DNA from: an uncultured Planctomycetales bacterium
GTDB lineage: Bacteria > Omnitrophota > Gorgyraeia > Zapsychrales > JBDRMG01
Assembly: GCA_964478715.1 (NCBI GenBank)
Contig: CAYZIY010000012.1
Span: 1-52,931 of the forward strand
Direction of reading: 5' to 3'
DNA: 52,931 nt
Shown here in pieces: positions 13,885 through 29,203 of this stretch. The notes under the pieces are model-generated. The model was given only the letters and a program-made list of their open reading frames with translations. It ran no database searches and was not told where the DNA came from. The translations under genes and the position numbers were made by a program. Within the stretch, counting starts at the first letter, position 1. Each line of letters opens with the position of its first letter.

Positions 13885-13901
13885 ATATAAAAGAGGTGAT
13901 T

Positions 13902-15860
13902 ATGGAAAAGCTTGACGGAAAAAGTAAGGATATAGTCAAAGATAATATTGACAAATTAAAGCAGTTATTTCCTGATGTGTTCACAGAAGACGGGATTGAT
14001 TTTGATGTCTTAAAAGACACGTTGGGGGAATACGTTGATGATAAGGAAGAACGGTATCAATTTGCGTGGCATGGAAAGACACAGGCGCGTCGTCTTGCGC
14101 AAACGCCATCGACAGGGACATTGCGGCCATGCAAAGAAGAAAGTGTGAATTGGGATAATACACAGAATCTATTTATTGAAGGTGACAACCTTGAAGTTCT
14201 TAAGTTGCTTCAGAAAGCGTATCATAAAGAAGTGAAGATGATTTATATTGATCCCCCTTATAATACAGGGAATGATTTTATTTATAAGGATGATTTTCGG
14301 GATAATATTAAAAATTATAAAAAATTAACAGGGCAGATAGATTCAGAGGGGATGGTTGTATCAACAAATTCAGAAACAAGTGGGCGCTATCATACGGATT
14401 GGTTAAATATGATATATCCTCGTCTTAAATTGGCAAGAAATTTATTAAAAGATGACGGAGTAATTTTTGTCAGTATAGACGATAATGAAATTGATAATTT
14501 GAAAAAAATATCCAATGAAATATTTGGAGAAGATAATTTCCTCGCTGTTGTTTCAAGAGTTGCAAAGACAACTAGTTTCCGTGGAAATTATTTTGCGCCA
14601 AGTAAAGATTATATTCTTTGCATCGCAAAAAATATCAGCGACTTAAAACCTTTTCAGGACGAAGTGAATGAATCGCAATTTGCGAAGATAGAGACCGAGG
14701 GTCAGCGAAAAGGGGAATATTACAGAGATGATATTGCGTTTTATTTATCTACTCTCGAAACTCGTCCTAATCAGCGATATTTTATTGAGTGTCCTGATGG
14801 CGAAAAAGTTATTCCTCCCGGGAATACATTTCCACCAGAAAAGCCTAAAGAGGGAGATGGTGTATGGCGTTGGAATCTAGAAAGTTTTAAAGAAAAAAAA
14901 CAATTTATTGTTTTTAAGAAATCCAAGCAATCCCCGTTATTAAATGATGAAGGAAAACAGGCTGGCTGGAACCTTTACACAAAAAGTTATCTTAATGACA
15001 AAAAAGAAAACGGAAACATTCCACGTGATTTCTGGGACGGCTTTTTAAATAGGCATGGGACATCAGAATTAAAGAAATTAGAAATACCATACAGTTTTCC
15101 TAAGCCTGTAGAAATGATAGAGTATTTGATGAAAATATCGAACGTAACTCAAAATGATATTGTTTTAGATTTTTTTGCTGGCTCCGCCACAACTGCTCAT
15201 GCAGTTATCAAGCTAAACTCATTGGATAAAAAAAATAGAAAATTTATAATGATACAAATACCCGAAGACTGTCAAGATAATGTGGAAGCATCAAAAGCGG
15301 GCTTCAAGAAATTAACTGATATAGGTAAAGAACGAGTACGTCGAGTTATTAAGAAAATAGAAGCTGAACAAGATGAGAAGAAAAAGCAAGGTAAGGGTGA
15401 GTTGTTTGAACAAAGTGAAACAGATACGGCAGATTTAGATCTAGGTTTTAAGGTCTTCAAACTAGACGCTTCCAATATTTCAACATGGGATCCTGATTTT
15501 GATACTGTACAGCAAGATTTATTGAGCGCTGTTGATAATATCAAAACAGATCGTAGTGAAGCAGATGTTCTTTATGAAATATTGCTTAAATATGGCTTGG
15601 ATTTAGCGGTTCCCATTGAAGAGCTTGAAATCAAAGGCAAGAAAGTGTTTGTTGTTGGCATGGGGGCTTTAATTGTTTGTCTGGCTTCTGATGTAACAGT
15701 AGAGATAGTTGAAGAAATTGCCAAACTAAAAGATAAATATCAGCCAGAGGTTGAGATGAGAGTTGTCTTTAAAGATAGCAGTTTTAAAGATGATGTCGTT
15801 AAAACCAATGCTGTCCAGATTCTCAAACAACACGGCATCGAAGATGTGAAGAGTATTTGA
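13902..15860 (+). CDS. mod: Type III-like DNA methyltransferase (Mod; N6-A/N4-C class, DPPY)
   Basis: Motif IV is IYIDPPYNTG and the AdoMet motif I is DFFAGSATTAHAV. ATG 13902 is preferred because the RBS AAGAGG lies 6 nt upstream. Confidence 0.9.
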   Translation: MEKLDGKSKDIVKDNIDKLKQLFPDVFTEDGIDFDVLKDTLGEYVDDKEERYQFAWHGKTQARRLAQTPSTGTLRPCKEESVNWDNTQNLFIEGDNLEVLKLLQKAYHKEVKMIYIDPPYNTGNDFIYKDDFRDNIKNYKKLTGQIDSEGMVVSTNSETSGRYHTDWLNMIYPRLKLARNLLKDDGVIFVSIDDNEIDNLKKISNEIFGEDNFLAVVSRVAKTTSFRGNYFAPSKDYILCIAKNISDLKPFQDEVNESQFAKIETEGQRKGEYYRDDIAFYLSTLETRPNQRYFIECPDGEKVIPPGNTFPPEKPKEGDGVWRWNLESFKEKKQFIVFKKSKQSPLLNDEGKQAGWNLYTKSYLNDKKENGNIPRDFWDGFLNRHGTSELKKLEIPYSFPKPVEMIEYLMKISNVTQNDIVLDFFAGSATTAHAVIKLNSLDKKNRKFIMIQIPEDCQDNVEASKAGFKKLTDIGKERVRRVIKKIEAEQDEKKKQGKGELFEQSETDTADLDLGFKVFKLDASNISTWDPDFDTVQQDLLSAVDNIKTDRSEADVLYEILLKYGLDLAVPIEELEIKGKKVFVVGMGALIVCLASDVTVEIVEEIAKLKDKYQPEVEMRVVFKDSSFKDDVVKTNAVQILKQHGIEDVKSI

Positions 15861-15876: not shown

Positions 15877-16845
15877 ATGAACAGAACTGACATATTAAAG
15901 CTACATAAGAAACAGCTTAGCTTAGAGATTGATAGCATAAGACTTGCGATTCAACATAATGCCGTAAAAGGAGCAGAAGCCGAGCATGCTTTTAAAAGGT
16001 TGCTTAGAAAACACCTGCCACAAAGGTATAAGTTGGGTTCAGGTTTTGTTGTTAATGGAGAACGGAGTTCTCGTCAACATGATATTGTTGTCTATGATGA
16101 TTTGATGAACGCTCCAATTTATTTAGAGGAGTCGGCAGGGGCTTTTCTAGGAGGATCTGTGTATGGAGTGATTGAAACAACGATTGCAAAATTTGATAGC
16201 AAAAAATTAGAAGAAGACATAGAGAAAATTGGGCATTTAAGAAAAATATTTCCTGATAATAAAGTAAAATTTCAAAAAGTTGAATCAGTGCCTATTATGG
16301 ATATTGATGCGGCATTAGAAAGTAATGAATATTTGTTGCAAGATTCGGGTTGTTCGCCTGAAGATAGAAAACAAGAAATAAGAGAAAAATGGTTTACAGC
16401 GAGTGGTGCATTTATCGGTGGAGCAACGAAGTTAGAGACAGTTGCTTGCGAAGGCGAATTGTTAAATAATTTGAATTTGTTGGCGAGAGAAAGTAGAAGC
16501 TCAGAAGTTAGAGATAAGGAAATTGTGTCGCCACCACCTCCTCGTACTTATTTATGTGCCTTAAACGGGACAACATATAAAAGTATTGATTCATTAGCCA
16601 AGACGGCAAAACGTCTCACAAAAAAATATGGGGCGCATCTTCATGGATTATTTATTATGAATGACGATGGCAAGGATTGGTATTTATCGACAAAGGCTTA
16701 TTGTGATTATGATATTGAAACATATAAAAATGATGATGCGTTTTTCTATTTGTTGTATCGGATGAGACGTGCTTTTCAGGGCATGTTAGTCGGACAGTAT
16801 CCAGCAGCTGAAAGGAACTTAAATGGACAAGAGGAAAATACATGA
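15877..16845 (+). CDS. DUF6602-like protein (possible PD-(D/E)xK nuclease fold) inserted between mod and res
   Basis: The N-terminal KGAEAEHAFKRLLRKHLPQRYKLGSGFVVN...SRQHDIVVYD pattern is recalled from DUF6602. The C-terminal half was not recognised. Confidence 0.5.
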   Translation: MNRTDILKLHKKQLSLEIDSIRLAIQHNAVKGAEAEHAFKRLLRKHLPQRYKLGSGFVVNGERSSRQHDIVVYDDLMNAPIYLEESAGAFLGGSVYGVIETTIAKFDSKKLEEDIEKIGHLRKIFPDNKVKFQKVESVPIMDIDAALESNEYLLQDSGCSPEDRKQEIREKWFTASGAFIGGATKLETVACEGELLNNLNLLARESRSSEVRDKEIVSPPPPRTYLCALNGTTYKSIDSLAKTAKRLTKKYGAHLHGLFIMNDDGKDWYLSTKAYCDYDIETYKNDDAFFYLLYRMRRAFQGMLVGQYPAAERNLNGQEENT

Positions 16846-19817
16846 AATTAAAATTTGATGCGAACTTAGATTTTCAAAAAGAAGCAGCAGCTTCTATTGT
16901 AGATATATTTGAAGGGCAGGAGACGTGCCGGACTAATTTTACGGTTGCACCCATGCCTGAAAAAATGCTTTTTGATAATGATTTGGGCGTTGGAAATAAG
17001 CTCGAATTATTGCCGGATGAGTTATTATCAAATGTAAAGAAAATTCAGCTTAAGAATGGTCTCAAACCATCCTCTGGTTTGGATTCAATGAATTTTACGA
17101 TTGAGATGGAGACCGGAACCGGTAAGACATATGTGTATTTACGATCAATATTTGAACTCAACAAAAAATATGGATTTACAAAATTTGTTATTGTTGTTCC
17201 GTCCGTCGCGATCAAAGAAGGTGTTTATAAGTCGCTTCAGATCACAGAGGAGCATTTAAAAGCTCATTACGATAATATTCATTATGATTATTTTGTGTAC
17301 GATTCCCAGAAGCTTGAGCAGGTACGAAGCTTTGCTACTAACGATTATATCCAGATCATGGTTATCAATATCGATGCGTTTCGAAAAAGTTTTACCGATC
17401 CTTCCAAAATATCTAAAGCCAATGTTATTCATCGAACACACGATAAATTAAGCGGCAATAAGCCGATTGAATTTATTCAAGCAACAAATCCAATAGTGAT
17501 TATTGATGAGCCTCAAAGTGTAGATACGACCGATAAGTCAAAGGAAGCCATTGCGTCATTAAAACCGTTATGTATTCTTCGCTATTCCGCAACGCATCGC
17601 GAGCAATATAATTTGATGTATAAACTTGATTCAGTTGATGCCTATGAACGCAAGCTTGTTAAGCAAATTGAAGTAGCATCACTTCAGGTTAAAGATCAGC
17701 ATAATAAAGCTTATATTAAATTGCTTAAAGTTGATAATTCAAAAGGGGCATTAAGAGCGCGAATAGAATTTGATGTGCAAAAGACCGGGAAGATAAAACG
17801 AGACAAGAAGTGGGTCAAGCAGGGTGATGATCTGCATTCACTATCAGGCGGGCGAAATATTTATGAAGGATATATTATTAATGACATTTATTGTGAAAAG
17901 GGCAATGAGTATATTGATTTTACGAGCAATCCCGATGTGGTTTATTTAGAACAAGTTTTGGGAGACATGGACAGCCAAGAGTTTAAGCGTGTGCAGATAA
18001 GAAAAACAATTGAAGAGCATCTTGAAAAAGAGCTGCGTTTGCGTTCAAAAGGGATTAAAGTTTTAAGCCTTTTCTTTATTGATAAAGTCGCGAATTATCG
18101 CTTTTACGATGATGAAGGTGAGCCGCAAAAAGGGAAGTACGCGAAGACTTTTGAAGAAGAGTATCGTAGCCTTATAAAAAAGCCCAAATATAAAACACTT
18201 TTTGAAAATATTGACGTAGAAAGTTCGGCTGCTGAAGTTCATGATGGGTATTTTGCGATTGATAAAAAGAAAACAAAGGGTGGTAAAGAATACGAAGAAT
18301 ATAAGGATACAAAAGGTAATACTGCGTCAGATGAAAGTGCGTATAACACTATTATGAAAAACAAAGAGTGGCTTTTAAGTTTTGAGTGTCCCTTAAAGTT
18401 TATTTTTTCTCATTCAGCGCTGAAAGAGGGGTGGGATAATCCGAATGTTTTTCAAATATGCACGCTTAATGAAACTAGCTCCGAAATCAAAAAGCGTCAG
18501 GAAATTGGGCGCGGATTAAGGATTGCAGTAAATCAAGACGGAGATCGTGTTCATGGGTTCGATGTAAACACCTTAACAGTCATGGCAAATGAGTCGTATG
18601 AAGATTTTGCCGATGCTTTACAAAAAGAAATTGAAAAAGAGGAAGGTATCAGATTTGGCGTTGTTGAAGATCATACTTTTGCAAACATTGTCGTGCTGGA
18701 TGAAAACGAAAACGAACATTACTTAGGCGTTGAGACTTCTGAGAATATCTGGAAGTGTTTGCTCGAAAATAAGTATATAAATGAACATGGCAAGGTTCTG
18801 GAATTATTGAAACAGGATTTGAATGACAATTCGGTTAAGATTCCTGAAGAGTATACACAGGCTCAGCCACAAATATTGAAGATTCTAAAAAAGATATCCG
18901 GCAAGCTCAATATCAAGAACGCCGATGATAAAAGAAAAGTGTCTTTGAATAAGGCGGTGTATTTAAGTGAAGATTTTAAAGCCCTCTGGGATCGGATTAA
19001 ATATAGAACAACATACAGAGTTAACTTCAACGTCGAGGAGCTGATAGACGCCTGTTCAAGGGAAATAAAAGATAATCTTATCGTGGGACGGGCAAAGATC
19101 GTCTACCAAAAAGGTAAAACAGAGATCACAAAGGGTGGTGTCATTATTAATGAAGTCAGGGAATCAATGACTGTTTATGGTGCTCGTGATTATGTTTTGC
19201 CTGATATCGTTAGTTATCTTCAAAATGAAACAAATTTAACCCGTAGAACAATTGTGGATATATTGATTAAGAGTGACCGATTAGAGGATTTCAAGGCGAA
19301 CCCTCAGAAATACATTGATGAGGTAAGCCAAATCATTAGACGGACTATGCGGCAGTTTATTGTTGATGGAATTAAATATCAGAAGATTGGCGAGACCTAT
19401 TTCTATGCTCAAGAGTTGTTTGAGTCGGAAGAATTGTACGGGTATTTATCGAAAAATATGATTGAAAGCGCCAAATCAATTTATGACCATGTTGTTTATG
19501 ATTCGGATATTGAATCGAGTTTTGCTAAGGAATTTGAAAAAAGTGATGATGTAAAGCTATACGCAAAGTTGCCGGGATGGTTTAAAGTTGAAACGCCACT
19601 TGGAAGTTATAACCCAGACTGGGCTGTTGTGATTGAAAAAGATGGGGAAGAGAGGCTCTATTTTGTAGTCGAATCAAAGGGAAGTTTATTTACTGATGCT
19701 TTACGTCCAACAGAAAAAGCCAAAATTGACTGTGGGAAAGAACATTTTAAAGCATTAAAAACAGATGTGAGATTTGCAGTTGCCAATAGCTATGAAGGTT
19801 TTTGTGATAATTTATGA
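16842..19817 (+). CDS. res: Type III restriction endonuclease Res subunit (DEAD/DEAH helicase + C-terminal nuclease)
   Basis: Motif I is METGTGKTYVY, motif II is IIDEPQS and motif VI is QEIGRGLRI. The C-terminal PD-(D/E)xK is PDWAVVIEK...FVVESKG. There is an ATGA overlap with the upstream gene. Confidence 0.9.
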   Translation: MKLKFDANLDFQKEAAASIVDIFEGQETCRTNFTVAPMPEKMLFDNDLGVGNKLELLPDELLSNVKKIQLKNGLKPSSGLDSMNFTIEMETGTGKTYVYLRSIFELNKKYGFTKFVIVVPSVAIKEGVYKSLQITEEHLKAHYDNIHYDYFVYDSQKLEQVRSFATNDYIQIMVINIDAFRKSFTDPSKISKANVIHRTHDKLSGNKPIEFIQATNPIVIIDEPQSVDTTDKSKEAIASLKPLCILRYSATHREQYNLMYKLDSVDAYERKLVKQIEVASLQVKDQHNKAYIKLLKVDNSKGALRARIEFDVQKTGKIKRDKKWVKQGDDLHSLSGGRNIYEGYIINDIYCEKGNEYIDFTSNPDVVYLEQVLGDMDSQEFKRVQIRKTIEEHLEKELRLRSKGIKVLSLFFIDKVANYRFYDDEGEPQKGKYAKTFEEEYRSLIKKPKYKTLFENIDVESSAAEVHDGYFAIDKKKTKGGKEYEEYKDTKGNTASDESAYNTIMKNKEWLLSFECPLKFIFSHSALKEGWDNPNVFQICTLNETSSEIKKRQEIGRGLRIAVNQDGDRVHGFDVNTLTVMANESYEDFADALQKEIEKEEGIRFGVVEDHTFANIVVLDENENEHYLGVETSENIWKCLLENKYINEHGKVLELLKQDLNDNSVKIPEEYTQAQPQILKILKKISGKLNIKNADDKRKVSLNKAVYLSEDFKALWDRIKYRTTYRVNFNVEELIDACSREIKDNLIVGRAKIVYQKGKTEITKGGVIINEVRESMTVYGARDYVLPDIVSYLQNETNLTRRTIVDILIKSDRLEDFKANPQKYIDEVSQIIRRTMRQFIVDGIKYQKIGETYFYAQELFESEELYGYLSKNMIESAKSIYDHVVYDSDIESSFAKEFEKSDDVKLYAKLPGWFKVETPLGSYNPDWAVVIEKDGEERLYFVVESKGSLFTDALRPTEKAKIDCGKEHFKALKTDVRFAVANSYEGFCDNL

Positions 19818-19905: not shown

Positions 19906-20646
19906 ATGTGTAAATATAAAGAATTATATGATATTTCTGTGCAGGTTCTTGGTGAAGAACAGCAGCGATTCAACCGAATGGATGAAAAAGCAGTTAAATA
20001 TTTTTCTGTTATTTCGTTCTTGATTGGGGTTTGCGTTTTTTTTGGCAAACAGTTAATAGCAGATAACATTCCACCTGCTAATTATTCTGAGTGGACGATT
20101 TTAATTTTTGGAAGTGTTTCTTTTTTGTCTCTATTTCTTGCATGGATATTTTGTTTTCTGGCGATTAAGCAACACGTTATAGAAAAAATGCCTTTAAATG
20201 ATGATATGATAAAATTTTTTCATGAAAACCGTTTGATCGATATTCACTATGCACTAACCAAGGCTAATAAAAAAGCACTAGCTATTAACCGAAAGAAGAC
20301 GGACAAGAAATCAAAGTTGTTAGCTAATGCGTATCGATCTATCCTAGTTTCAGTAATTACGTTAGTGTTTTTTGTGATTTTATGGAGCGGTTCTAAATGG
20401 CATAACGCTTATGAAAGTAAATTTATTAGTAAAGGAGATTGTATAATGACCGAAGAAAAAAAAGAAGAACAGAAACCCAAAGAAGATGTAGTCGCTCCTA
20501 ATTATGATCGACTAACAGCAAACGATCAAAAACCCAAAGAAGATGTGGTGGCTCCAAATTATGATCAAATTACTGAGGGGTATGATCCTGTAACGAAAAA
20601 AAATATCGAGAAGGGCGTCATTGATAAGAATGATACTTCTAAGTAG
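19906..20646 (+). CDS. three-pass membrane protein (SLATT/Pycsar-effector-like topology, tentative) with a 13-aa motif repeated twice near the C-terminus (19-aa period)
   Basis: An N-terminal amphipathic helix ending RMDEKAVKYF is followed by hydrophobic segments (VISFLIGVCVFF, ILIFGSVSFLSLFLAWIFCFLAI, ILVSVITLVFFVILW). QKPKEDVVAPNYD occurs twice. Confidence 0.55.
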   Translation: MCKYKELYDISVQVLGEEQQRFNRMDEKAVKYFSVISFLIGVCVFFGKQLIADNIPPANYSEWTILIFGSVSFLSLFLAWIFCFLAIKQHVIEKMPLNDDMIKFFHENRLIDIHYALTKANKKALAINRKKTDKKSKLLANAYRSILVSVITLVFFVILWSGSKWHNAYESKFISKGDCIMTEEKKEEQKPKEDVVAPNYDRLTANDQKPKEDVVAPNYDQITEGYDPVTKKNIEKGVIDKNDTSK

Positions 20647-20689: not shown

Positions 20690-21316
20690 ATGAAACAATT
20701 TAGTTTTTATGAATTTTCTGGAATATTGTTGCCGGGAACAGTTATTTTATATGGATTGATTATTGCATTTCCTGATATGAAAGAATCAATTCTAGGGTTG
20801 GATGTTACAGTTGGTGATTTAGGAATATTTGTTCTTCTTGCGTATATTTGTGGACATATTGTTCAGGCGATAGGGAATTTTTTAGAGAATATATGGTGGA
20901 TGCGTAATGGGATGCCAACAGATTGGATTCGAACGAATAAAAAAGAATTGATATCCAGTCAGCAGAGACAAATTTTAATGGATAAAGTTCGCAACCAATT
21001 AGTCAAATCACCCAGCTTTGATATAGAAAAAATTAACAAGAAAGAATGGTATAGTATTGTGCGACAAGTTTATGCTGTCATAGAGGTGGCAGAACGGTCA
21101 AAAAGAGCCGATATCTTTAATGGTAATTATGGCTTAAATAGAGGGCTATCTGCTGCGTTCTTTGCATTGACTTTATTATCTCTGTTTTTAAATTTAGCCT
21201 ATTGGAAAGCTTCATTGTTATTGTTTGTTGTTGGATTAATTTGTATCTATCGAATGAATCGCTTTGCTAAGCATTATGCAAGAGAATTATTTGTGCAGTA
21301 TTTGTCTATAGATTAA
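20690..21316 (+). CDS. four-pass membrane protein, unknown function
   Basis: Hydrophobic segments are ILLPGTVILYGLIIAF, LGIFVLLAYICGHIV, AAFFALTLLSLFLNLAY and LLLFVVGLICIY. The gene is co-directional, with a 43-bp gap upstream and a 16-bp gap downstream. Confidence 0.55.
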   Translation: MKQFSFYEFSGILLPGTVILYGLIIAFPDMKESILGLDVTVGDLGIFVLLAYICGHIVQAIGNFLENIWWMRNGMPTDWIRTNKKELISSQQRQILMDKVRNQLVKSPSFDIEKINKKEWYSIVRQVYAVIEVAERSKRADIFNGNYGLNRGLSAAFFALTLLSLFLNLAYWKASLLLFVVGLICIYRMNRFAKHYARELFVQYLSID

Positions 21317-21332
21317 ATGGGAGGAAAATATT

Positions 21333-22403
21333 ATGAGCAATGTAGCTAAAAAAATTATAATCCCTTCTACTAAAATGCTTCGTATTATTTTTTTATACGT
21401 TGGTCAGGGTGATGCAACTTTAGTTGTTATTCCTGATGGGGATGAATATAAGTATATGTTGGTAGATTCTCATTTGGATGAGACTTGTGGAGGGATTGAT
21501 CTGATTAAGATGATGGAAGATTTATTTGATGGTGAAAAAGATGTGGGCATAGATATTTATTGTAATACGCATCCTCATAAAGATCATCTGGGAAAAGTAA
21601 AAGAGATCTATGAAAATAAAAAAATTGGAATTAAAGAAGTGTGGCACTCAGGACATAAGCCCGGCAAAGATCATGAGGATGCATATAAAGATTTGAAATA
21701 TGTTATGGATAAAATTGGCGATGAAAATGTTTATGTTTTGAAAGGAAGTAATGACGAAGATAAATTGAATGATAAAAAATATAAATTGGGAGATATTCAT
21801 TACAATATATTAGCTCCTGCGGAATATGTTGCTGATGATATTGAGGATGAAAAACCAAAGGATCGTTACAATAGGATACACGAACAATGTGGAGTAATAC
21901 GTTTGAAATATGGAAAAGAGGAAAAACAGATATTGATTACCGGTGATGCAGATTACGATGCATGGTCAAAGCATATAACAGAGTATCATAAAGAAAGATT
22001 GCCCTCTTTTGTTTTAAGCGCTGCTCATCATGGCTCAAATTCATTCTTTTGGAAGGGCGACCCTAAAGATGAAGATCCGTATAAAGCTCATTTAGATCAA
22101 ATTGACCCTTCTCATGTTGTCGTTTCTGCTCCGAAAAGAAAAGAAAGTCCTCATGGGCATCCAGATAAAGAAGCTATGGAATTATATAAAGAAAAGGTGG
22201 GTGAGGATAAGTTGCATCATTTGGGAGATAAACGAGAATGTGTGATTGTTGATATAAAAGAAGATGGTGACATTGAAGTTTATTTTGATGATGAATTGGG
22301 TGAAGAGTACGGTTTTGGCAAGAAAAAGAATGAAAACGGCAATGAAGATAAGAGGATTTACACAGGAGTTGTTACGAAAGTTGATAAAAAACCAATGGGG
22401 TAA
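21333..22403 (+). CDS. metallo-beta-lactamase-fold hydrolase (ComEC/Rec2-like MBL domain), C-terminal Gly
   Basis: LYVGQGDATLV, HPHKDH (HxHxDH), TGDADYD and AAHHGS are present. The protein ends ...KKPMG-stop. Confidence 0.85.
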   Translation: MSNVAKKIIIPSTKMLRIIFLYVGQGDATLVVIPDGDEYKYMLVDSHLDETCGGIDLIKMMEDLFDGEKDVGIDIYCNTHPHKDHLGKVKEIYENKKIGIKEVWHSGHKPGKDHEDAYKDLKYVMDKIGDENVYVLKGSNDEDKLNDKKYKLGDIHYNILAPAEYVADDIEDEKPKDRYNRIHEQCGVIRLKYGKEEKQILITGDADYDAWSKHITEYHKERLPSFVLSAAHHGSNSFFWKGDPKDEDPYKAHLDQIDPSHVVVSAPKRKESPHGHPDKEAMELYKEKVGEDKLHHLGDKRECVIVDIKEDGDIEVYFDDELGEEYGFGKKKNENGNEDKRIYTGVVTKVDKKPMG

Positions 22404-22405
22404 AA

Positions 22406-24781
22406 ATGAGCTGGTTTTCTAAACATCCAAACTGGCTCTACTCGGAGTCGATAGAGTTATCAAACAATTCTATATATAAAGAATCGTATCAATATATTGA
22501 TCGGTGTCTCGTTTCCGCAGGAAATATTATTCTTCATAAAGAGAAAACAGCGTACTTCCCAATATTAATTGCTTATCCTGATGCAACGCCTTATCTCCCA
22601 CCTATTGTATTTATCTTAGAGACACTTCCTAGTGATTCAGAGGTAAAAGAATTATCAAAAGTCTCAACAGAAGTGATATCAAAGAGTTTGTCCAAGAAGG
22701 CAAGATATTTTAATAGACGCCATCAAAATGAAGATGGGAGTGTTTGTTTTATTGAAACGAGTGATTTACATGGAGGAAATGCAGAAGTCTTTTCTATAAA
22801 AGACATTTTAAAAAGAATTCGTATTTGGTTGGCAGGAAGAATCCCAAAAGATAGTCGAGAAGTGGAATTGTTTTATCATTTTAGACGGCGATGTTATGAA
22901 ATTCAGTATTTGTTGCCAGATTTATTTTTTGATGAAGATATTGTGAAAGGGATATTTTATGCTGGATTATCTACAATTATGCCAGCAAATTATTTTGGAA
23001 AAAATAAATTAAAAAAGACGTATGTTGGAGTCTTAATATCTGGTTCCAATCAAGGTGGCATTGAAATTTCGCCTAAAATTTACACTCAAGAAAATTTTGT
23101 ACTTTTTGCGCATATCCCCAATCCAAAGAAAATTGAGCAATTTTTAAGTGGGGCAAAGGACGATAAATTTAAAGAAGATATTGGTAGGGGGAATGTTCTT
23201 TTGGGCTATTGGTGGGACATAAATAAAGAACCAGAACCATTTTCTTCGATCAGTGAACTAGCAAAATATATCGGAGCAGGAGATGAGAATAAAGGAATTG
23301 CCGATTTAATTCATGCCTTGAAAGGGGAACTAAGAAGTTTGCCTGATACCATAAACATTGGCTTAAGATTTCCTGGACGCTTTCAAAACAAAGATTGGCA
23401 AATGTTAAGACTTGAAAAAGGAACACGGTCTATTTTGTTTATAGATAGTGATGAAGAATTAAAAGAAAGGCTTTCGGATTACTCGATAAGCTCTGTTTAT
23501 CAAGAGTATATTACAGAGCCATATTATCACAAAAGAAACATAGGAAGAGCGAACAGAGACGTTTTGAAGCCAGCCAAAGTAGTTTTGATTGGTTGTGGCG
23601 CATTAGGTTCTGAGGTGTCTGATTGTTTATGTAAAGCTGGGATTGGAAATCTAATGCTTGTTGATAAAGAAAGCCTTAATGCACATAACTGTATTAGGCA
23701 CTGCATTGGATTAAATCGAGTAACCTTTCCGAAAGTTTTGGCAATGGCTGAACATTTAGCTTTACATAATCCTTTTGTAAATTTAGAACTTAAAGGCTGT
23801 GATATTTTAAGAAATAATTTGAACGAATATTTTCCTAATGGATTTATGGCTGTTTCTACAATTGCTGATGATAACACAGAATCTTATTTAAACGAAAAAG
23901 CTATTGAAGCAAATAAAACTGTATTTTATGCAAGAGCTTTGCGAGGAGGGAAGGCAGCACGAATATTTCGGGTGAAACCAAGAGAGGATGCCTGTAAAAA
24001 TTGTTTAGCTCTTTATCTGAAGGATGGTGGCGATTTATGTATAAATATTCAAGAGGATGAAAGTTTACCAATTATTACTAATGAATGTAATAATCCTGTC
24101 CGTCCTGCAAGCGCATCTGATCTTAAATTGATTGCTGCAATTGCTTCTCGAATTGTTATTGACTATTTACAAGGTGTTGGGAGTGATAAGAATCACTGGA
24201 TATTAAGTACTGAACAGTTAGAAGGAATTAAATTTTATGATAAAACATGGGGGATAGTTCAATCAGAATATTTGCCCCCACATCCAAAATGTTGTGTATG
24301 CCAAAATATAAGCGAAAAAAAGGTGTTTATTGCAAAAATTGCATATGAATTAATGAAGAGAGAGGTACAGGCGGCTGATGATCTTGAGACGGGTGGAGTA
24401 TTAATCGGATATATTACCGAGAACGGAGAGTTTGTTATTACGGTAGCTACAGAACCCGGTTCAAAAGCAATAAAAGAGGCATCGTTATTCTTAAAGGATG
24501 AGGAATTTACTCAACAACAGTTAGAAGAAGCTTTTAAAACATTCGGTGATAAAGGATTATATCTAGGAGAATGGCATTATCATCCTAGAGGAGCTTATGC
24601 TCCAAGTGGTACAGATATTAAATCATTAACTCAGATTGCTAAACAAGATTCATATCGCACGGATACGCCGTTATTAATAATCCTTTCTTCGGATTGTGAA
24701 TTTGGTCTTACTATTCACGATCAAAATGGCAGCTGTGTTAAATTGCCGTTAGAAGTAATCGAAACTTCTATCTCAGACTAA
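22406..24781 (+). CDS. E2(UBC-like)-E1(ThiF/MoeB-like)-JAB(JAMM) triple-domain fusion protein
   Basis: E2-like region is YPDATPYLPPIVFIL ... HQNEDGSVCF. E1 region is VVLIGCGALGSEV plus CKNC and CCVC. JAMM region is LETGGVLIGY ... HYHPRGAYAPSGTD (HxHx7Sx2D). Confidence 0.85.
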   Translation: MSWFSKHPNWLYSESIELSNNSIYKESYQYIDRCLVSAGNIILHKEKTAYFPILIAYPDATPYLPPIVFILETLPSDSEVKELSKVSTEVISKSLSKKARYFNRRHQNEDGSVCFIETSDLHGGNAEVFSIKDILKRIRIWLAGRIPKDSREVELFYHFRRRCYEIQYLLPDLFFDEDIVKGIFYAGLSTIMPANYFGKNKLKKTYVGVLISGSNQGGIEISPKIYTQENFVLFAHIPNPKKIEQFLSGAKDDKFKEDIGRGNVLLGYWWDINKEPEPFSSISELAKYIGAGDENKGIADLIHALKGELRSLPDTINIGLRFPGRFQNKDWQMLRLEKGTRSILFIDSDEELKERLSDYSISSVYQEYITEPYYHKRNIGRANRDVLKPAKVVLIGCGALGSEVSDCLCKAGIGNLMLVDKESLNAHNCIRHCIGLNRVTFPKVLAMAEHLALHNPFVNLELKGCDILRNNLNEYFPNGFMAVSTIADDNTESYLNEKAIEANKTVFYARALRGGKAARIFRVKPREDACKNCLALYLKDGGDLCINIQEDESLPIITNECNNPVRPASASDLKLIAAIASRIVIDYLQGVGSDKNHWILSTEQLEGIKFYDKTWGIVQSEYLPPHPKCCVCQNISEKKVFIAKIAYELMKREVQAADDLETGGVLIGYITENGEFVITVATEPGSKAIKEASLFLKDEEFTQQQLEEAFKTFGDKGLYLGEWHYHPRGAYAPSGTDIKSLTQIAKQDSYRTDTPLLIILSSDCEFGLTIHDQNGSCVKLPLEVIETSISD

Positions 24782-25040
24782 TCGTAGTCTGAATGCTTTT
24801 TCCCTCATCAGTCAATTCATAAATCCTCCCACGTTTATCCGCTGGATTAATGCATTTTGCAAGACCTTTCTTTGTAAGAAGACGTAGCACATCGCTGGTG
24901 CTGTTTAAACTTATTTTAGGATTGATTTCCTTTGCTTTCTTGAGTGTCTGCGTCGGGGTCATAGGATGTGTTAAAACACGCACAACGGCGGTTCTTTGCG
25001 ATCCGCTGACAACCCAAACATAAAGGTCAAGATTCACCAT
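24768..25040 (-). CDS. winged-helix (MarR/ArsR-like) transcriptional regulator
   Basis: PTQTLKKAKEINPKISLNSTSDVLRLLTKKGLAKCINPADKRGRIYELTDEG is an HTH plus wing. The start is uncertain (25040, 25052 or 25172). The short form places a conserved promoter motif upstream. Confidence 0.6.
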   Translation of the reverse strand: MVNLDLYVWVVSGSQRTAVVRVLTHPMTPTQTLKKAKEINPKISLNSTSDVLRLLTKKGLAKCINPADKRGRIYELTDEGKSIQTTISLR

Positions 25041-25075
25041 CTTTTTTAGCATAATGCTTAAATCATGCTTAAATA

Positions 25076-25094
25076 TTTTACACTGAAATAATAC
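25076..25094 (-). promoter_or_regulatory. conserved element-specific promoter/operator motif, copy 1
   Basis: The plus-strand text is TTTTACACTGAAATAATAC. It lies ~36 nt upstream of the wHTH start at 25040. Minus-strand reading is TTATTTCAGTGTAAAATATTT. Confidence 0.5.
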
Positions 25095-25552
25095 AGATTG
25101 ATTTAGTGATTTAACTATCTTATGCAAATATTTTGATAAAAAATGAGACAATCTGGATAAAAAAACAGACATTGTCAGTGTTTTTTCTGTGTAAAGTTAA
25201 TAAATGACGGCGTTACTACTTTGTGTCAGATACACAATGGATGAATACATGCTTTATAAAGAGGAGAAACGCTTGTGCGAGAAATACGGGGCGTCTTCGC
25301 TAAAAGAAGTTCTGCAAATTCAGAAGGATATGATCAGGGATCATTATCAGAAAGCATATACCAGACAATATCAATAAATTCGATTTCTATCGAAAGATTT
25401 TTAAATAGTATTCAAACTTCAGATAATAAATCGAATGCGAAAGGGATGTAGCCTTCGCCTTCAGGTAGGGGGGCTATGGGGTAGCAGGGGTACTTCAAGG
25501 CGAAAGCTATATATACGAGCATAGCTTTATGACTCAAAGAGGTGCTTGAGCT

Positions 25553-26821
25553 ATGGCAAAAAATGATATCTATAACAGTAAACGGCAGTATGAGTCTATT
25601 GTCCGAAAGATTGAAAATTCGGTTTATTTGAAGCCGGATAAGAAAACGCAATACTATGTGAAGAATCCCGCCAATCTTCGATATTTTAAGCAACTGGTTA
25701 AAGAATTTACATTCAAAGATATTTCTTATATACGTAGGATTCAGTTTATCAAAGCGTTGCGCAAAACGTGTTTTGCAACTGAAAAAGATTTGAAAGATGT
25801 CACCCGTGAAGAGGTAAAAGATATTGTGGCTCAATTTCATGGTATTCACCGCACACCAATAACACGCCGGGATTTCATTAACTATAATAAAGCCATCTGG
25901 AAGGTTATCTTGCCTGAGAAAGATTATAAAGGACGGGTTGACGATACGATAACGCCATACGCGTGGAGGATATCGTCGTATTCTGATAAAAGCACGCAGA
26001 AAGATAAGGCAGACAAATTAACGCATGAAGAATATTTAAAAATATTGAACAGTTTGAATAAAGATCCTCGAATTCAGCTCTATTATTCTCTTATGTTTGA
26101 GTGCTTAGCCCGTCCCCAAGAGCTTTGCTATGTCGATATCAAGGATGTTGACGTGCGGGACAATTACGCGCGGATAAGGATTAAAGAATATGGGAAGGAG
26201 GGAACAAAAACACTTCAGGTAATCGACAGTTATTTTTATTTAACGGAATGGCTTAATAAACATCCTCTCAAACATGATCCTGATGCGCCGCTTTTTTTAT
26301 CAATAGGAAATAACAACAGGCATGCCAGATTGACGCCTAAACACGCGAATAAAATATTGCGAAACAAGCTAAAAGAGTTAGGCATCAATAAGCCAATTAC
26401 AAATTATTCTTTTAAACGAAACGGTGTCACGGTTAGGTATTTATCAGGCGAGCCTGCGCAGAATATTCAAAAAATCGCTGGGTGGACGTCTACAGATCAG
26501 TTGCGAACGTATGACCTTTCAGGGCAAGAGGATTTCTTAAATGAAGAATTGGTTCGCAAGGGAATTGCAAAGGCTGACGGTAAAGACAAGAAGCGCTTTT
26601 TGTCTTTTAAGAATTGTATGTTCTGTAATACGGTTAACCCTATTACTAACGAATTGTGCAGTCATTGTAAAAGGCCTCTGAACAGGGAAAAGATACTTGC
26701 AGAAGAGAAGAAAAAGAATGAGGAAATTGCAGCGATCAAGGAAAAGATGAATCAGATGAATGAGATGATGGAGTCTTTAATGCTTGAGAAAGTAAATGAT
26801 AGGTTGAAGGAAAATAGCTAA
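25553..26821 (+). CDS. tyrosine site-specific recombinase/integrase with C-terminal zinc ribbon and coiled coil
   Basis: Box I Arg lies in ECLARPQELCYVDIKDV. Box II-like region is YSFKRNGVTVRY...IAGWTSTDQLRTYD (Trp in place of His-II as in Cre, plus a terminal Tyr). A CMFC...CSHC zinc ribbon is present. Confidence 0.75.
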   Translation: MAKNDIYNSKRQYESIVRKIENSVYLKPDKKTQYYVKNPANLRYFKQLVKEFTFKDISYIRRIQFIKALRKTCFATEKDLKDVTREEVKDIVAQFHGIHRTPITRRDFINYNKAIWKVILPEKDYKGRVDDTITPYAWRISSYSDKSTQKDKADKLTHEEYLKILNSLNKDPRIQLYYSLMFECLARPQELCYVDIKDVDVRDNYARIRIKEYGKEGTKTLQVIDSYFYLTEWLNKHPLKHDPDAPLFLSIGNNNRHARLTPKHANKILRNKLKELGINKPITNYSFKRNGVTVRYLSGEPAQNIQKIAGWTSTDQLRTYDLSGQEDFLNEELVRKGIAKADGKDKKRFLSFKNCMFCNTVNPITNELCSHCKRPLNREKILAEEKKKNEEIAAIKEKMNQMNEMMESLMLEKVNDRLKENS

Positions 26822-27222
26822 GTCTTTTTTATTATCTTTTCAGCCTTATTTAAAAGCCGTTCAATATCTTTTTTCATAGCAACCATTTTTCCGCTGATAC
26901 GGCATTGGATCTCACCGAATTGCTTTAATTTATTCAGATCATCAGACATGGCGCGTTGAGTGGCTTTGATAATGTTAGTTTCAATAGCGATATTGTTGAG
27001 ATTCTTTGCCAGAGCTGCTTTATCGTTTGGATTGATCCGTGACTGCTGTTCAATGAAGCCGTTTAATGCGGAAATATTTTTCTCAATGGAGGTGGCGTAA
27101 TCATTTGCTCGGTAAAGATCAGTGATTGCTATTTGCTGATTCTTGTAGAATTGGTTTATATTCTGTTTTTGAGATGCAATGTTTTCGATCATTTTCTTGA
27201 GGATTTTCTGGGATTTCTTCAC
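26818..27222 (-). CDS. hypothetical coiled-coil protein
   Basis: 134-aa ORF with a GTG start. It overlaps the integrase stop by 4 nt (convergent). The conserved motif lies upstream. Confidence 0.45.
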   Translation of the reverse strand: MKKSQKILKKMIENIASQKQNINQFYKNQQIAITDLYRANDYATSIEKNISALNGFIEQQSRINPNDKAALAKNLNNIAIETNIIKATQRAMSDDLNKLKQFGEIQCRISGKMVAMKKDIERLLNKAEKIIKKT

Positions 27223-27253
27223 AAATAAAAAATAAAAAAAGGGAAATAAATAT

Positions 27254-27272
27254 TTTGCACTGAAATAACACT
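27254..27272 (-). promoter_or_regulatory. conserved promoter/operator motif, copy 2
   Basis: The plus-strand text is TTTTGCACTGAAATAACAC, ~32 nt upstream of the start at 27222. Confidence 0.5.
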
Positions 27273-27447
27273 ATTTGTTCTGGTAGCTTTTCAGTGTTTT
27301 TTGGTAGCTGATGCCGTCAAGCGCGTCATAATAATCATGCCGGTAGTTATCGAGAAAATGGGATAACTTAAAATCAATTGAACGCACATGATCAGCAATC
27401 TTGAGCACAGCATTTTTACATTTGTCCTCAAGGGTTTCATCCTTCAT
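27271..27447 (-). CDS. small hypothetical protein (58 aa; absent from the ORF track, presumably too short)
   Basis: My own translation is MKDETLEDKCKNAVLKIADHVRSIDFKLSHFLDNYRHDYYDALDGISYQKTLKSYQNK. The start abuts the stop of the upstream small ORF. Confidence 0.35.
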   Translation of the reverse strand: MKDETLEDKCKNAVLKIADHVRSIDFKLSHFLDNYRHDYYDALDGISYQKTLKSYQNK

Positions 27448-27621
27448 TTAATCACCCTGTGTTATGACTTTGTGCAGGTAGTTGATATGCACAATATCGG
27501 TTCGCGTGGTTTTGATGATCAGCCATTTTTGGTCTTTGCTTAGTTTTATCGACCGAGAAAGCGTCGGCTGCTTATCTTCGAATTCTTTCTTTTGCGGTTC
27601 TTTCATTTTTTCTGTCTTCAT
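27448..27621 (-). CDS. small hypothetical protein (57 aa; absent from the ORF track, presumably too short)
   Basis: My own translation is MKTEKMKEPQKKEFEDKQPTLSRSIKLSKDQKWLIIKTTRTDIVHINYLHKVITQGD. Conserved motif copy 3 lies 63 nt upstream. Confidence 0.35.
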   Translation of the reverse strand: MKTEKMKEPQKKEFEDKQPTLSRSIKLSKDQKWLIIKTTRTDIVHINYLHKVITQGD

Positions 27622-27683
27622 TTTAGTTCCTCCTCTATCACCTCAAGTTACTATTCAAAAGAAGTGAAAGGGATGTATAAAAA

Positions 27684-27708
27684 CTTTATACAGAAATAGT
27701 AATGAAGC
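27684..27708 (-). promoter_or_regulatory. conserved promoter/operator motif, copy 3
   Basis: The plus-strand text is CTTTATACAGAAATAGTAATGAAGC. The minus-strand reading gives TTGCTT, 16 nt, then TAAAGT. Confidence 0.5.
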
Positions 27709-27750
27709 AATTGGGGGGAGAGAGGGGCGGATAAGCTCCGCCCCAAAAGG

Positions 27751-27996
27751 TTACTCAAGCACAAGGTTTTTGTTGACGACAAGTGTGCTGCCGGGATTTA
27801 TCAGCTTTGTAAATATTTCCTTGTTGATCAAGACCGCAAGCGGCTTGCTTGTGTAGTTGCCTTCTTCTCCGTTGAGCGCGGCAATGACGCAGGTATTAAT
27901 CCCGTCAAATTCCGTTGCCAGTAAAACAAAATTATGGAATTGTCCGCTAATAATATCTCTAAAGACTTTGATCTCATCAGGGGTAATGTCTCGCAT
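27751..27996 (-). CDS. hypothetical protein
   Basis: 81-aa ORF in a co-directional gene string. No motif was recognised. Confidence 0.45.
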   Translation of the reverse strand: MRDITPDEIKVFRDIISGQFHNFVLLATEFDGINTCVIAALNGEEGNYTSKPLAVLINKEIFTKLINPGSTLVVNKNLVLE

Positions 27997-28015
27997 AGTT
28001 TTGACTCCTTTGTTT

Positions 28016-28441
28016 TTATGGGGTTAATAACCCTTCATCGGAAAAGCTAAAATGGTTGTTGTTGTCTTCACCGATAATTACATGGTCAAGCAATTGGATT
28101 TCAATGATCTTCCCAGCTTTAGTTAGCTCTTTTGTTTTATGGATATCTTCCATAGACGCTTTGACATCACCTGAAGGGTGATTGTGACAAACAATGATTG
28201 ACGCAACGCCTTTCATGATTGCCATGCGGTACAGCTCTCTTGGATGCACAATGGTTTGATTTAAAAGTCCTAAGGTAACAAGCTCAACATATTTGATCTT
28301 GTTAGCGGAATTTAAACCGATGCTCCAAAAATGTTCTTTGTTCCTGTCGATTTCACATTCAGCATTGAGGATAGCCGAACATATTTCAGCAACCGCCTTA
28401 CTGCATGTGATCTTTTTCTTTGTATAGCCACGTATATTCAT
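28016..28441 (-). CDS. RadC-like JAB/MPN domain protein
   Basis: HPRELYRMAIMKGVASIIVCHNHPSGDVKASMEDI...LLDHVIIG is the RadC JAMM-like motif (HNHPSG..S..D). The start was chosen at MNIRGY. Confidence 0.85.
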   Translation of the reverse strand: MNIRGYTKKKITCSKAVAEICSAILNAECEIDRNKEHFWSIGLNSANKIKYVELVTLGLLNQTIVHPRELYRMAIMKGVASIIVCHNHPSGDVKASMEDIHKTKELTKAGKIIEIQLLDHVIIGEDNNNHFSFSDEGLLTP

Positions 28442-28644
28442 GAGCAGAGATCCTTTCTGTAGAATGAATGAAAAAAAGAGGGCAGTTTTTGGTGTCATGC
28501 CCGGGACAGTGTTTTCGCTGTTTTTAGTGGTTTCTTTTTTGGTTTTGGTGTTTTGAGCTTTTCCCCGCTGGTGTCCTCACAACATGGTGAGTAAGAAGGT
28601 TCTCGCAACCTTTCGAGGGGCTGGTTTAAGATATCCAGCAACCA

Positions 28645-28676
28645 TAAAAAGAGGGGAGCCTTCCCCAAAGCTCCCC
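28645..28676 (-). terminator. intrinsic terminator downstream of the DUF2958 gene
   Basis: The minus strand reads GGGGAGC-TTTGGGGAAG-GCTCCCC followed by TCTTTTTAT. A second perfect 9-bp hairpin (28683-28704) lies just upstream. Confidence 0.55.
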
Positions 28677-28721
28677 TAACTCGCAGATAACCCTTGTTAT
28701 CTGCATCCCCCAATTTGTTGT

Positions 28722-29075: not shown

Positions 29076-29203
29076 ACGGTTTCTCCTTTCTCTTCTTTTT
29101 CCGGGATACTTACCCAGATGTCCGTTGGGCTAAGATCAACCCAATCTAAAATTTCTTCACCGTTCCATTTCTCCTGCGGTATCCACATCCATGTTCTCCT
29201 TTC

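What the first reader, a model, noticed from the sequence alone, without database searches (positions are those of the whole stretch)
21333..22403. MBL-fold protein ends in Gly immediately before the E1 gene: possible self-'ubiquitin'
The 356-aa ComEC-type MBL protein (HPHKDH, TGDADYD, AAHHGS) terminates ...VVTKVDKKPMG-stop, 2 bp before the E2-E1-JAB start codon. E1 enzymes adenylate a C-terminal carboxylate, classically Gly. In type II CBASS the conjugated moiety is the C-terminus of the CD-NTase rather than a dedicated Ubl. By analogy, the MBL enzyme itself may be the species that is activated and conjugated, then released by the JAB domain. That would explain the missing Ubl gene.
Basis: inference. 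Interest (0 to 1): 0.7.

Follow-up and report, generated by a model that had tools for sequence, protein, structure and literature searches.

The report
MBL enzyme with ubiquitin-like tail
A metal-dependent hydrolase gene sits directly in front of a fused E2-E1-deubiquitinase gene, and its floppy tail ends in a conserved Pro-Met-Gly, so the enzyme itself is very probably attached to targets the way ubiquitin is; this belongs to an anti-phage system already described as "6A-MBL".

Summary
ORF 21333..22403 encodes a 356-aa ComEC-type MBL hydrolase ending ...VDKKPMG-TAA. The ATG of a 791-aa E2-E1-JAB protein follows 2 bp later.

All 64 distinct syntenic loci keep a tail of the form [TS][KR][ILV]D-x-[KRQ]-P-M-G, followed by 0-7 variable residues. 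Synonymous codons vary freely there. None of 14 homologues lacking this fused partner has the motif. AlphaFold2 predicts residues 331-356 to be a disordered tail on a confident MBL core. The E2 Cys, the E1 ATP site with its crossover Cys, and the JAMM motif are invariant.

These are the criteria used to identify CD-NTases as Cap2 substrates in type II CBASS. Conjugation of the MBL through Gly356 is therefore well supported, though not shown biochemically.

It is not new. The operon is Iyer/Aravind type 6a, the validated "6A-MBL" defence, and a 2024 preprint states that MBL pathways conjugate their enzyme.

Additions from this work:
- Most homologues are precursors that need trimming after the Gly.
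- MBL relatives also pair with separate Cap2+Cap3 genes or with an E2-only gene, each with a different tail.
- About 80% of loci carry a 4-TM protein (window 20690..21316) or a patatin, in what looks like an effector position.

The parts
20690..21316 (+). 208-aa four-TM protein: TM helices at about residues 9-27, 40-62, 152-172 and 175-195, with a soluble region of about 85 aa between the two pairs. It is the probable third component of the system, either an effector or a membrane partner.
   Evidence: PADLOC Csx27 3.5e-8. An iterated HMM finds homologues next to the MBL gene in 57/81 loci, upstream or downstream on the same strand, and mutually exclusive with patatin. TM profile. It lies 16 bp upstream of the MBL start.
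21333..22322 (+). Globular core of the MBL-fold hydrolase (residues 1-330), ComEC type. Metal ligands are H80-x-H82-x-D84-H85, H183, D205 and H232/H233.
   Evidence: AF2 mean pLDDT 87.5, above 90 for most of the core. Best fold match is the ComEC MBL domain 9ic4. Profile match to ComEC. Ligand residues invariant in 85 homologues.
22323..22367 (+). Low-complexity, poorly conserved linker rich in Gly/Asn/Asp/Lys (residues 331-345).
   Evidence: pLDDT about 33. Variable in length and sequence in alignments A1 and A2.
22368..22400 (+). Conserved C-terminal tail VVTKVDKKPMG (residues 346-356). Family motif is [TS][KR][ILV]D-x-[KRQ]-P-M-G. Gly356 (22398-22400) is the predicted site of adenylation, thioester formation and conjugation.
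   Evidence: PMG in 57/63 distinct syntenic loci, with the variants PMA, GMG, PSG and PNG in the rest and EMG in one more. Asp at position -5 in 61/63. Synonymous codons vary. Absent from homologues that lack the fused partner.
22406..23005 (+). E2-like (UBC-type) domain of the triple-module protein, about residues 1-200. Invariant R105-H106-Q107...G111...C114, with catalytic Cys114 at 22745-22747.
   Evidence: Invariant in 62 homologues. hhalign 99.5% to Cap2-like proteins aligns RHQN..GsLC with the pHQ..g.iC E2 active-site motif. Pfam gives only a weak UEV hit.
23537..24325 (+). E1-like adenylation domain, about residues 378-640. Features: G396-x-G-A-x-G401 ATP loop, D420, R431, K443, D528, a Zn cluster of C530/C533/C629/C632, and the predicted crossover-loop catalytic Cys561 (24086-24088).
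   Evidence: Pfam ThiF 5.7e-20. PADLOC CBASS E1-E2 models down to 1.5e-32. PDB matches to UBA5, MoeB, MccB and Cap2. Residues invariant.
24338..24781 (+). JAB/JAMM metallopeptidase domain, about residues 645-791. Motif E661...H724-x-H726-x7-S734-x2-D737. Predicted to trim extensions after the tail Gly in homologues and to cleave MBL-target conjugates.
   Evidence: Pfam Prok-JAB 1.6e-8. PADLOC CBASS JAB 3.9e-28. PDB 9ild 'Peptidase' 2.4e-20. Motif invariant.
24773..24802 (+). Terminator-like hairpin plus T-run that overlaps the stop codon of the E2-E1-JAB gene. Probable end of the operon.
   Evidence: This is a consensus match only.
19906..20646 (+). 246-aa protein with 3 predicted TM segments and a C-terminal tandem repeat (QKPKEDVVAPNYD twice), 43 bp upstream of the 4-TM gene. 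Whether it belongs to the system is uncertain.
   Evidence: No Pfam or PADLOC hit. No homologue in the 80 related loci.

Best explanation
Window 20690..24781 is a '6A-MBL'-type anti-phage operon: a 4-TM protein, a ComEC-type MBL phosphodiesterase/nuclease, and a fused E2-E1-JAB enzyme. The MBL protein is its own 'ubiquitin'.

Proposed steps:
1. A disordered C-terminal tail of about 25 residues delivers Gly356 into the E1 adenylation site.
2. The carboxylate is adenylated, then moved as a thioester to the crossover-loop Cys561, and then to the E2 Cys114.
3. The tail is ligated to a nucleophile, most likely a Lys, on an unknown target. This primes or relocates the enzyme, as Cap2 does for CD-NTases.
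4. The JAB domain reverses the conjugates. In the roughly 60% of homologues that carry 1-7 residues after the Gly, it must first expose the Gly.

Shown here: gene order, domain content, intact catalytic residues, a disordered tail, protein-level conservation of the tail, and co-variation of the tail with the type of partner.

Inferred: adenylation, thioester formation and conjugation; the direction of regulation; the MBL's substrate (nucleic acid, by its ComEC likeness); and the role of the 4-TM protein.
For: - Anatomy.
- Tails of 120 metagenomic homologues: almost all full-length ones carry ..D-x-K-P-M-G followed by 0 to a few residues.
- 80 genomic loci from many phyla: every locus with E2-E1-JAB directly downstream (gap -14 to +26 nt) has the motif, and none of the others does.
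- Codon analysis: Pro uses CCA/CCG/CCC/CCT in 23/17/11/10 loci, and Gly uses GGA/GGG/GGC/GGT in 22/20/11/8. The distance from the Gly codon to the next start codon ranges from 5 to 47 nt. Selection therefore acts on the peptide, not on an RBS.
- AF2: core confident, residues 331-356 at pLDDT about 33.
- E2 Cys114, the E1 ATP loop, R431, D528, Cys561 and the JAMM motif are invariant in 62 homologues.
- The E2-linker-E1 part is collinear with Cap2-like proteins (hhalign 99.5%, E=3.5e-22). Those proteins match the PADLOC CBASS E1-E2 model over its full length at 2e-166.
- When the partner is separate Cap2+Cap3, the MBL ends exactly in YG, YA or FG. When it is an E2-only protein, the tail is ..KP[WY]...
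- The C-termini of the TM protein and of E2-E1-JAB are not conserved.
- Published precedent and criteria for CD-NTase conjugation: 10.1101/2022.03.31.486616 and PMC10097602.
- PMC11601596 states that MBL pathways use the fused E2-E1 to conjugate their enzyme.
Against: - No biochemical evidence was available, here or in the papers I could read, that an MBL protein forms an adenylate, a thioester or an isopeptide.
- The penultimate residues (Pro-Met) differ from the Gly-Gly of ubiquitin. The MBL has no beta-grasp fold.
- E1-like enzymes such as MccB and PaaA, which match the E1 domain about as well as Cap2 does by sequence, carry out non-conjugating C-terminal chemistry.
- The target of conjugation is unknown.
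- I could not model the complex, because the structure tool takes single chains only.
Confidence: 0.75

Rival explanations
1. The conserved tail is a non-covalent docking or autoinhibitory peptide. It binds the E2-E1-JAB protein, or is merely trimmed by JAB, to hold the MBL nuclease in check. No adenylation or conjugation of the MBL takes place.
For: A conserved disordered tail that co-varies with its partner is also what a short linear interaction motif would look like. No covalent product has been seen.
Against: An invariant small residue (G, rarely A) followed by 0-7 unconserved residues is the signature of a cleavage or activation site, not of a docking motif. The E1 ATP site, both catalytic Cys residues and the E2 HxN-like motif are invariant, which would be unnecessary for pure docking. 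In class B the MBL ends exactly at G/A, as Cap2 substrates do.
Confidence: 0.1
2. The E1 domain performs non-conjugating chemistry on the MBL C-terminus. Examples would be thiocarboxylation in the manner of MoeB/ThiF, or MccB/PaaA-like adenylation followed by cyclisation or nucleotide attachment. The MBL would be modified but not attached to targets.
For: MccB, MoeB, ThiF and PaaA score as well as Cap2 against the E1 domain. The Zn-binding CxxC pairs are shared with MoeB and ThiF.
Against: The fused E2 domain with an invariant Cys, and the fused JAMM isopeptidase, are hallmarks of conjugation-deconjugation cycles. The whole E2-linker-E1 region is collinear with Cap2. No sulfur-transfer or peptide-maturation genes are in the operon.
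Confidence: 0.07
3. The real substrate is a small ubiquitin-like protein or another protein encoded elsewhere in the genome. The MBL is only a co-regulated effector, and its tail serves another purpose.
For: The window is a single 53-kb contig, so genes elsewhere cannot be excluded. Some bacterial E1/E2/JAB operons (Bil, Bub) do use dedicated Ubls.
Against: The two-gene core moves together across many phyla on plasmids and islands without any Ubl gene. The operon has no room for one. The tail motif tracks the partner type exactly.
Confidence: 0.05
4. The terminal Gly and the tail are chance, or a by-product of nucleotide-level constraints (ribosome-binding site or translational coupling for the downstream gene).
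For: The stop codon and the next start are 2 bp apart, and GGGG lies 6-9 nt before the ATG. A single terminal Gly is common.
Against: All synonymous codons are used at Pro, Gly and Asp. The spacing from the Gly codon to the next start varies from 5 to 47 nt. The motif persists when 1-7 codons follow it.
Confidence: 0.01

Closest known systems
6A-MBL defence system (operon type 6a of Iyer, Burroughs and Aravind 2006, PMC1779556; named and reported as an anti-phage system in Pseudomonas aeruginosa by van den Berg et al. 2024, as cited in PMC13276650 and 10.1101/2025.09.30.679545)
   Same: A triple-module E2-E1-JAB protein in that order, next to a specialised MBL gene, located on a mobile element or defence island.
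   Different: No difference in the core. The window's locus additionally has a conserved 4-TM gene directly upstream. The descriptions I could read call the system a two-gene operon. I could not read van den Berg 2024 to check its gene content.
Type II CBASS (CD-NTase + Cap2 E2-E1 + Cap3 JAB + effector)
   Same: Cap2-like E2-linker-E1 and Cap3-like JAB. The substrate enzyme has a disordered C-terminal region ending in a conserved G/A only when the conjugation genes are present. An adjacent patatin or TM gene occupies an effector-like position. MBL relatives also occur with separate Cap2+Cap3 genes and with E2-only genes, as CD-NTases do.
   Different: There is no nucleotidyltransferase; an MBL hydrolase sits in its place. 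JAB is fused to the E2-E1 protein. Most MBL tails carry extra residues after the Gly and so need processing, whereas CD-NTases with Cap2/Cap3 end at G/A. No second messenger is known.
Bil (BilABCD) and Bub bacterial ubiquitination-like systems
   Same: E1, E2 and JAB chemistry in anti-phage contexts. The JAB exposes a C-terminal Gly from a precursor and also deconjugates.
   Different: Those systems use a dedicated beta-grasp Ubl and canonical-type E1/E2 proteins (or serine-based ones in Bub). Here no Ubl exists, and the machinery is of the Cap2/ATG7-like type.
ComEC C-terminal MBL nuclease domain
   Same: Closest sequence and fold relative of the MBL core; same metal-binding motifs.
   Different: This is a soluble stand-alone protein with a ubiquitin-like tail, not part of a DNA-uptake channel. 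Its substrate has not been tested.

Membership tests
6A-MBL / Iyer-Aravind type 6a operon | [quoted passage not shown] | tested here: met
   ThiF at residues 378-536 and Prok-JAB at 650-761. N-terminal E2 motif RHQ..C114 is invariant and aligns to the Cap2 E2 active site.
6A-MBL / Iyer-Aravind type 6a operon | A specialised MBL-fold gene immediately adjacent | tested here: met
   MBL ORF ends 2 bp before the E2-E1-JAB start codon. MBL fold confirmed. Same arrangement in about 64 other loci.
6A-MBL / Iyer-Aravind type 6a operon | Protects against phage | not testable with these tools
   Context only: flanked by a type III R-M system and a NucC-like gene, on an integrase/ArdA-bearing element.
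Type II CBASS | A CD-NTase (cGAS/DncV-like nucleotidyltransferase) signalling enzyme | tested here: not met
   No nucleotidyltransferase hit among the operon's proteins in Pfam or PADLOC. An MBL hydrolase occupies the position.
Type II CBASS | Cap2-type E2-E1 fusion and Cap3-type JAB | tested here: met
   PADLOC CBASS E1-E2 models down to 1.5e-32 and JAB 3.9e-28. hhalign 99.5% to Cap2-like proteins. PDB Cap2 structures 7to3, 7tsq and 7tsx matched. Here the JAB is fused.
Cap2-type conjugation substrate (by analogy with CD-NTases) | [quoted passage not shown] | tested here: met
   pLDDT about 33 for residues 331-356. Tail motif conserved at the protein level.
Cap2-type conjugation substrate (by analogy with CD-NTases) | Conserved G/A at the reactive C-terminus only in operons that carry the conjugation enzymes | tested here: met
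   Motif in 64/64 loci with the fused partner and in 0/14 without it. Class B (Cap2+Cap3) MBLs end in YG, YA or FG.
Cap2-type conjugation substrate (by analogy with CD-NTases) | Forms an acyl-adenylate, a thioester with E1/E2 Cys, and isopeptide conjugates | not testable with these tools
   Needs biochemistry or MS. Complex modelling was not possible with a single-chain predictor.
Ubiquitin-like protein (beta-grasp Ubl) | Beta-grasp fold | tested here: not met
   The model is an MBL alpha-beta/beta-alpha sandwich plus a disordered tail. No Ubl-sized ORF is in the operon.
ComEC-type MBL phosphodiesterase/nuclease | HxHxDH, downstream His, Asp and His metal ligands, and a ComEC-like fold | tested here: met
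   H80/H82/D84/H85, H183, D205 and H232/H233 are invariant. 9ic4 is the top hit by profile (1e-5) and by fold (1e-16).
ComEC-type MBL phosphodiesterase/nuclease | Nuclease activity | not testable with these tools
   Inferred from relatives only. The next structural neighbours are the phosphorylcholine esterase Pce, RNase J and CPSF73.
JAMM/MPN+ metallopeptidase | E...HxHx7Sx2D motif | tested here: met
   E661, H724, H726, S734 and D737 are invariant in 62 homologues.

The most novel reading that the evidence does not exclude
MBL operons may be full three-part analogues of CBASS, not just 'a nuclease plus a regulator'. About 80% of loci carry either a conserved 4-TM protein or a patatin phospholipase, never both. 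These are the two classic membrane-killing CBASS effector types. The MBL family also occurs with all three CBASS conjugation layouts: fused E2-E1-JAB, separate Cap2+Cap3, and E2-only.

On this reading the MBL hydrolase occupies the slot of the sensor or signal-generating enzyme. It would be primed by self-conjugation and would control the membrane effector through a product, or through degradation of a molecule, that is not a CD-NTase-made nucleotide. An alternative version is ATG8-like attachment at the membrane. Either would be a new kind of immune signalling enzyme.
Probability: 0.25. Interest if true: 0.75.

Novelty: new member of a known kind. Interest (0 to 1): 0.4.

Why it matters
This is a second, independent enzyme family, besides the CD-NTases, that appears to use its own C-terminus as a ubiquitin-like handle. 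That supports the view that 'enzyme-as-modifier' conjugation is a general design in bacterial immunity.

For this window it gives a functional annotation to three genes that public annotation calls only 'MBL fold metallo-hydrolase', 'ThiF family adenylyltransferase' and 'hypothetical protein'.

The tail motif, the precursor extensions, the three partner classes and the 4-TM/patatin slot give concrete handles for experiments on a system whose target and output are unknown: mutants, peptide substrates and effector tests.

Tried and rejected
- Papers not held. I could not read Ledvina 2023 (PMC10292035), Chambers 2024 (PMC11476048), van den Berg 2024 (PubMed 39094584), or Burroughs 2009 and 2011. 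What they say about MBL tails and gene content is therefore unverified. The 2022 preprint of Ledvina has no mention of MBL.
- RBS or translational-coupling explanation of the tail. Rejected by codon and spacing analysis.
- The TM protein or E2-E1-JAB itself as the substrate. Rejected because their C-termini are not conserved.
- hhalign of the E2-E1-JAB profile against the E2-only partners of class C. Not significant overall (probability 0.7%); only the H..G..C motif lines up. The E2 assignment rests on the Cap2-like comparison instead.
- Pfam alone does not call the MBL (below threshold) or the E2 domain.
- No homologue in the phage collection. Only 9 plasmid records match.
- The upstream 246-aa TM protein (19906..20646) has no counterpart in the related loci, so I did not count it as a core part.
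- Docking the tail into the E1 site was not attempted. The structure tool folds one chain, and the two genes are in different frames, so no natural fusion could be submitted.
- I ran no further search on the E2-E1-JAB or TM proteins, because loci already in hand answered the questions.

Full report
**Observation.** The ORF at 21333..22403 (+) encodes 356 aa and ends ...VVTKVDKKPMG, followed by TAA. Two bases later, the ATG at 22406 opens a 791-aa ORF that runs to 24781. Pfam's MBL model is sub-threshold. A profile of the family finds the ComEC MBL domain as its only solved relative. An AlphaFold2 model (mean pLDDT 87.5) has the ComEC MBL domain 9ic4 as its best fold match, followed by the phosphodiesterase Pce and the nucleases RNase J and CPSF73. 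So 'ComEC-type MBL' is right. The downstream protein has ThiF and Prok-JAB domains and matches PADLOC's CBASS 'E1-E2' and 'JAB' models. There is no room for a Ubl gene: the gaps are 16 and 2 bp, and a terminator-like hairpin overlaps the last stop codon.

**Is the terminal Gly more than chance?** On its own it is not. Other proteins of the same loci end in Gly at a rate of a few per cent. The comparative evidence is what counts.
- A search of about 5.8 billion proteins gave 769 homologues. In the best 120, almost every full-length sequence ends in ...[IV][TS]K[IV]D-x-K-P-M-G followed by 0 to a few unconserved residues.
- A scan of one genome per species returned 80 loci from Bacteroidota, Planctomycetota, Desulfobacterota, Bacillota, Acidobacteriota, candidate phyla and others.
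- In every locus where a full-length E2-E1-JAB gene follows directly (gap -14 to +26 nt), the MBL carries the motif. The counts are PMG 57, PMA 2, GMG 2, PSG 1, PNG 1 and EMG 1, with Asp at position -5 in 61/63. None of the 14 loci without that partner has it.
- All four Pro codons, all four Gly codons and both Asp codons are used. The distance from the Gly codon to the next start ranges from 5 to 47 nt. The constraint is therefore on the peptide, not on a ribosome-binding site.
- The tail sits at the end of a 26-residue segment predicted to be disordered (pLDDT about 33), joined to the core by a low-complexity linker of variable length.

**The partner enzyme is competent.** Across 62 homologues the following are invariant:
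- E2: R105-H106-Q107...C114.
- E1: the G396xGAxG401 ATP loop, D420, R431, K443, D528, four Zn-binding Cys residues, and Cys561 in the predicted crossover loop.
- JAMM: E661...H724xH726x7S734x2D737.

A profile of these proteins aligns over the E2, linker and E1 regions (columns 47-598) with Cap2-like proteins at 99.5% probability. The alignment places Cys114 and Cys561 on the conserved Cys positions of those proteins. Those Cap2-like proteins match the PADLOC CBASS E1-E2 model end to end at 2e-166.

**Natural controls.** MBL homologues that lack the fused partner fall into two further classes.
- Class B (L017, L067, L076, L083) is followed by a separate Cap2-like gene of about 600 aa and a Cap3-like JAB gene of about 167 aa. 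These MBLs end exactly in ...RRYG, ...ARYA or ...SRFG.
- Class C (L001-4, L051, L054, L055, L058, L071, L075) is followed by a CBASS-type E2-only protein (PADLOC 'E2', 1e-28 to 5e-39). These MBLs have ...KP[WY]... tails.

The tail therefore changes with the conjugation machinery. That is what one expects of a substrate. [quoted passage not shown] The C-termini of the other two gene products are not conserved.

**Mechanism.** One refinement applies. In 38 of 63 distinct homologues the Gly is followed by 1-7 residues. The family as a whole therefore behaves like ubiquitin or BilA precursors that a JAB must trim. The window's protein is already mature. All covalent steps are inferred. What the MBL hydrolyses is also inferred, from its ComEC likeness.

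**Rivals.**
- A purely non-covalent docking tail (0.10).
- MccB/ThiF-like non-conjugating chemistry (0.07).
- A Ubl encoded elsewhere in the genome (0.05).
- Chance or RBS constraint (0.01, refuted).

**What is known.** The operon is type '6a' of Iyer, Burroughs and Aravind 2006: 'the triple module protein... I found no held paper that shows it biochemically, and I could not read the primary papers. The window's locus is a new member of a known kind. It is not a type II CBASS, because the defining CD-NTase is absent.

**Beyond the finding.** The gene just upstream (20690..21316) encodes a 4-TM protein with a weak Csx27 match. An iterated HMM finds homologues directly next to the system in 57 of 81 loci, upstream or downstream, in all three classes. 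Eight other loci carry a patatin-like phospholipase instead, and no locus carries both. Of the 16 loci with neither, about half are cut by contig ends. A mutually exclusive 4-TM/patatin slot, together with all three CBASS conjugation layouts, suggests the MBL systems are built like CBASS, with the MBL in the place of the CD-NTase. Whether the MBL is the killing nuclease or acts upstream of a membrane effector is open. That is the most novel reading the data allow (about 0.25).

**Context.** The operon lies in a defence island. Upstream is a type III R-M system with a DUF6602/NucC-like gene between mod and res. Downstream are an integrase, RadC, DUF2958, ArdA and a TrwB/HerA-like ATPase, indicating an integrative mobile element. 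Public annotation of homologous loci reads only 'MBL fold metallo-hydrolase' and 'ThiF family adenylyltransferase'.

**Verdict.** Novelty is low, since this is a known system and a published idea. Interest is moderate, because the comparative details sharpen an untested mechanism.

Noticed in passing
window 20690..21316 (+); L005-L083, various: A conserved 4-TM protein of about 190-260 aa (weak PADLOC Csx27 match) lies next to the MBL/E2-E1-JAB genes in 57/81 loci. Eight other loci have a patatin-like phospholipase instead, and none has both. This looks like a CBASS-style effector slot, whereas the descriptions I could read call the system a two-gene operon.
   Followed up: partly
L017, L067, L076, L083 (class B); L001-L004, L051, L054, L055, L058, L071, L075 (class C): MBL homologues also pair with separate Cap2-like + Cap3-like genes (tails end in YG, YA or FG) or with a CBASS-type E2-only gene (tails ..KP[WY]..). 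The MBL family thus reproduces all three conjugation layouts known for CD-NTases.
   Followed up: partly
window 15877..16845 (+): A 322-aa ORF with DUF6602, matching PADLOC PD-DExK (6.4e-24) and NucC-like effector (2.6e-16) models. It is wedged between the type III methyltransferase (13896..15860) and the restriction subunit (16842..19817), overlapping the latter's start by 4 bp.
   Followed up: no
window 19906..20646 (+): A 246-aa protein with about 3 TM segments and a C-terminal tandem repeat (QKPKEDVVAPNYD twice). It has no Pfam or PADLOC hit and no counterpart in the 80 related loci. It lies between the R-M system and the MBL operon.
   Followed up: partly
window 24768..31688: Mobile-element genes just downstream. 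A small protein (24768..25172, minus strand) converges on the operon and overlaps its end by 14 bp; it had no Pfam hit. Then come a tyrosine integrase (25553..26821), RadC-like JAB (28016..28498, -), DUF2958 (28722..29075, -), ArdA anti-restriction (29204..29809, -) and a TrwB/HerA-like ATPase (30279..31688, -). The defence island appears to ride on an integrative, possibly conjugative, element.
   Followed up: partly
L085 (Runella slithyformis plasmid pRUNSL03, NC_015694.1 33700-38978); also L018 and L024: Several MBL-fold genes in a row. In pRUNSL03 there are three annotated MBL hydrolases within about 5 kb: the first is followed by a SEC-C-domain (E2-only type) gene, and the last by a large serine protease. 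In L018 and L024 a second MBL gene follows a 153-aa TM gene downstream of E2-E1-JAB.
   Followed up: no
P0122, P0126, P0128, P0140, P0147 and similar: A more distant MBL subfamily of 420-500 aa replaces the disordered tail with an extra C-terminal domain (ends such as ...KHWIECF.V.N......FVVNI). It presumably lies outside the conjugation scheme.
   Followed up: no
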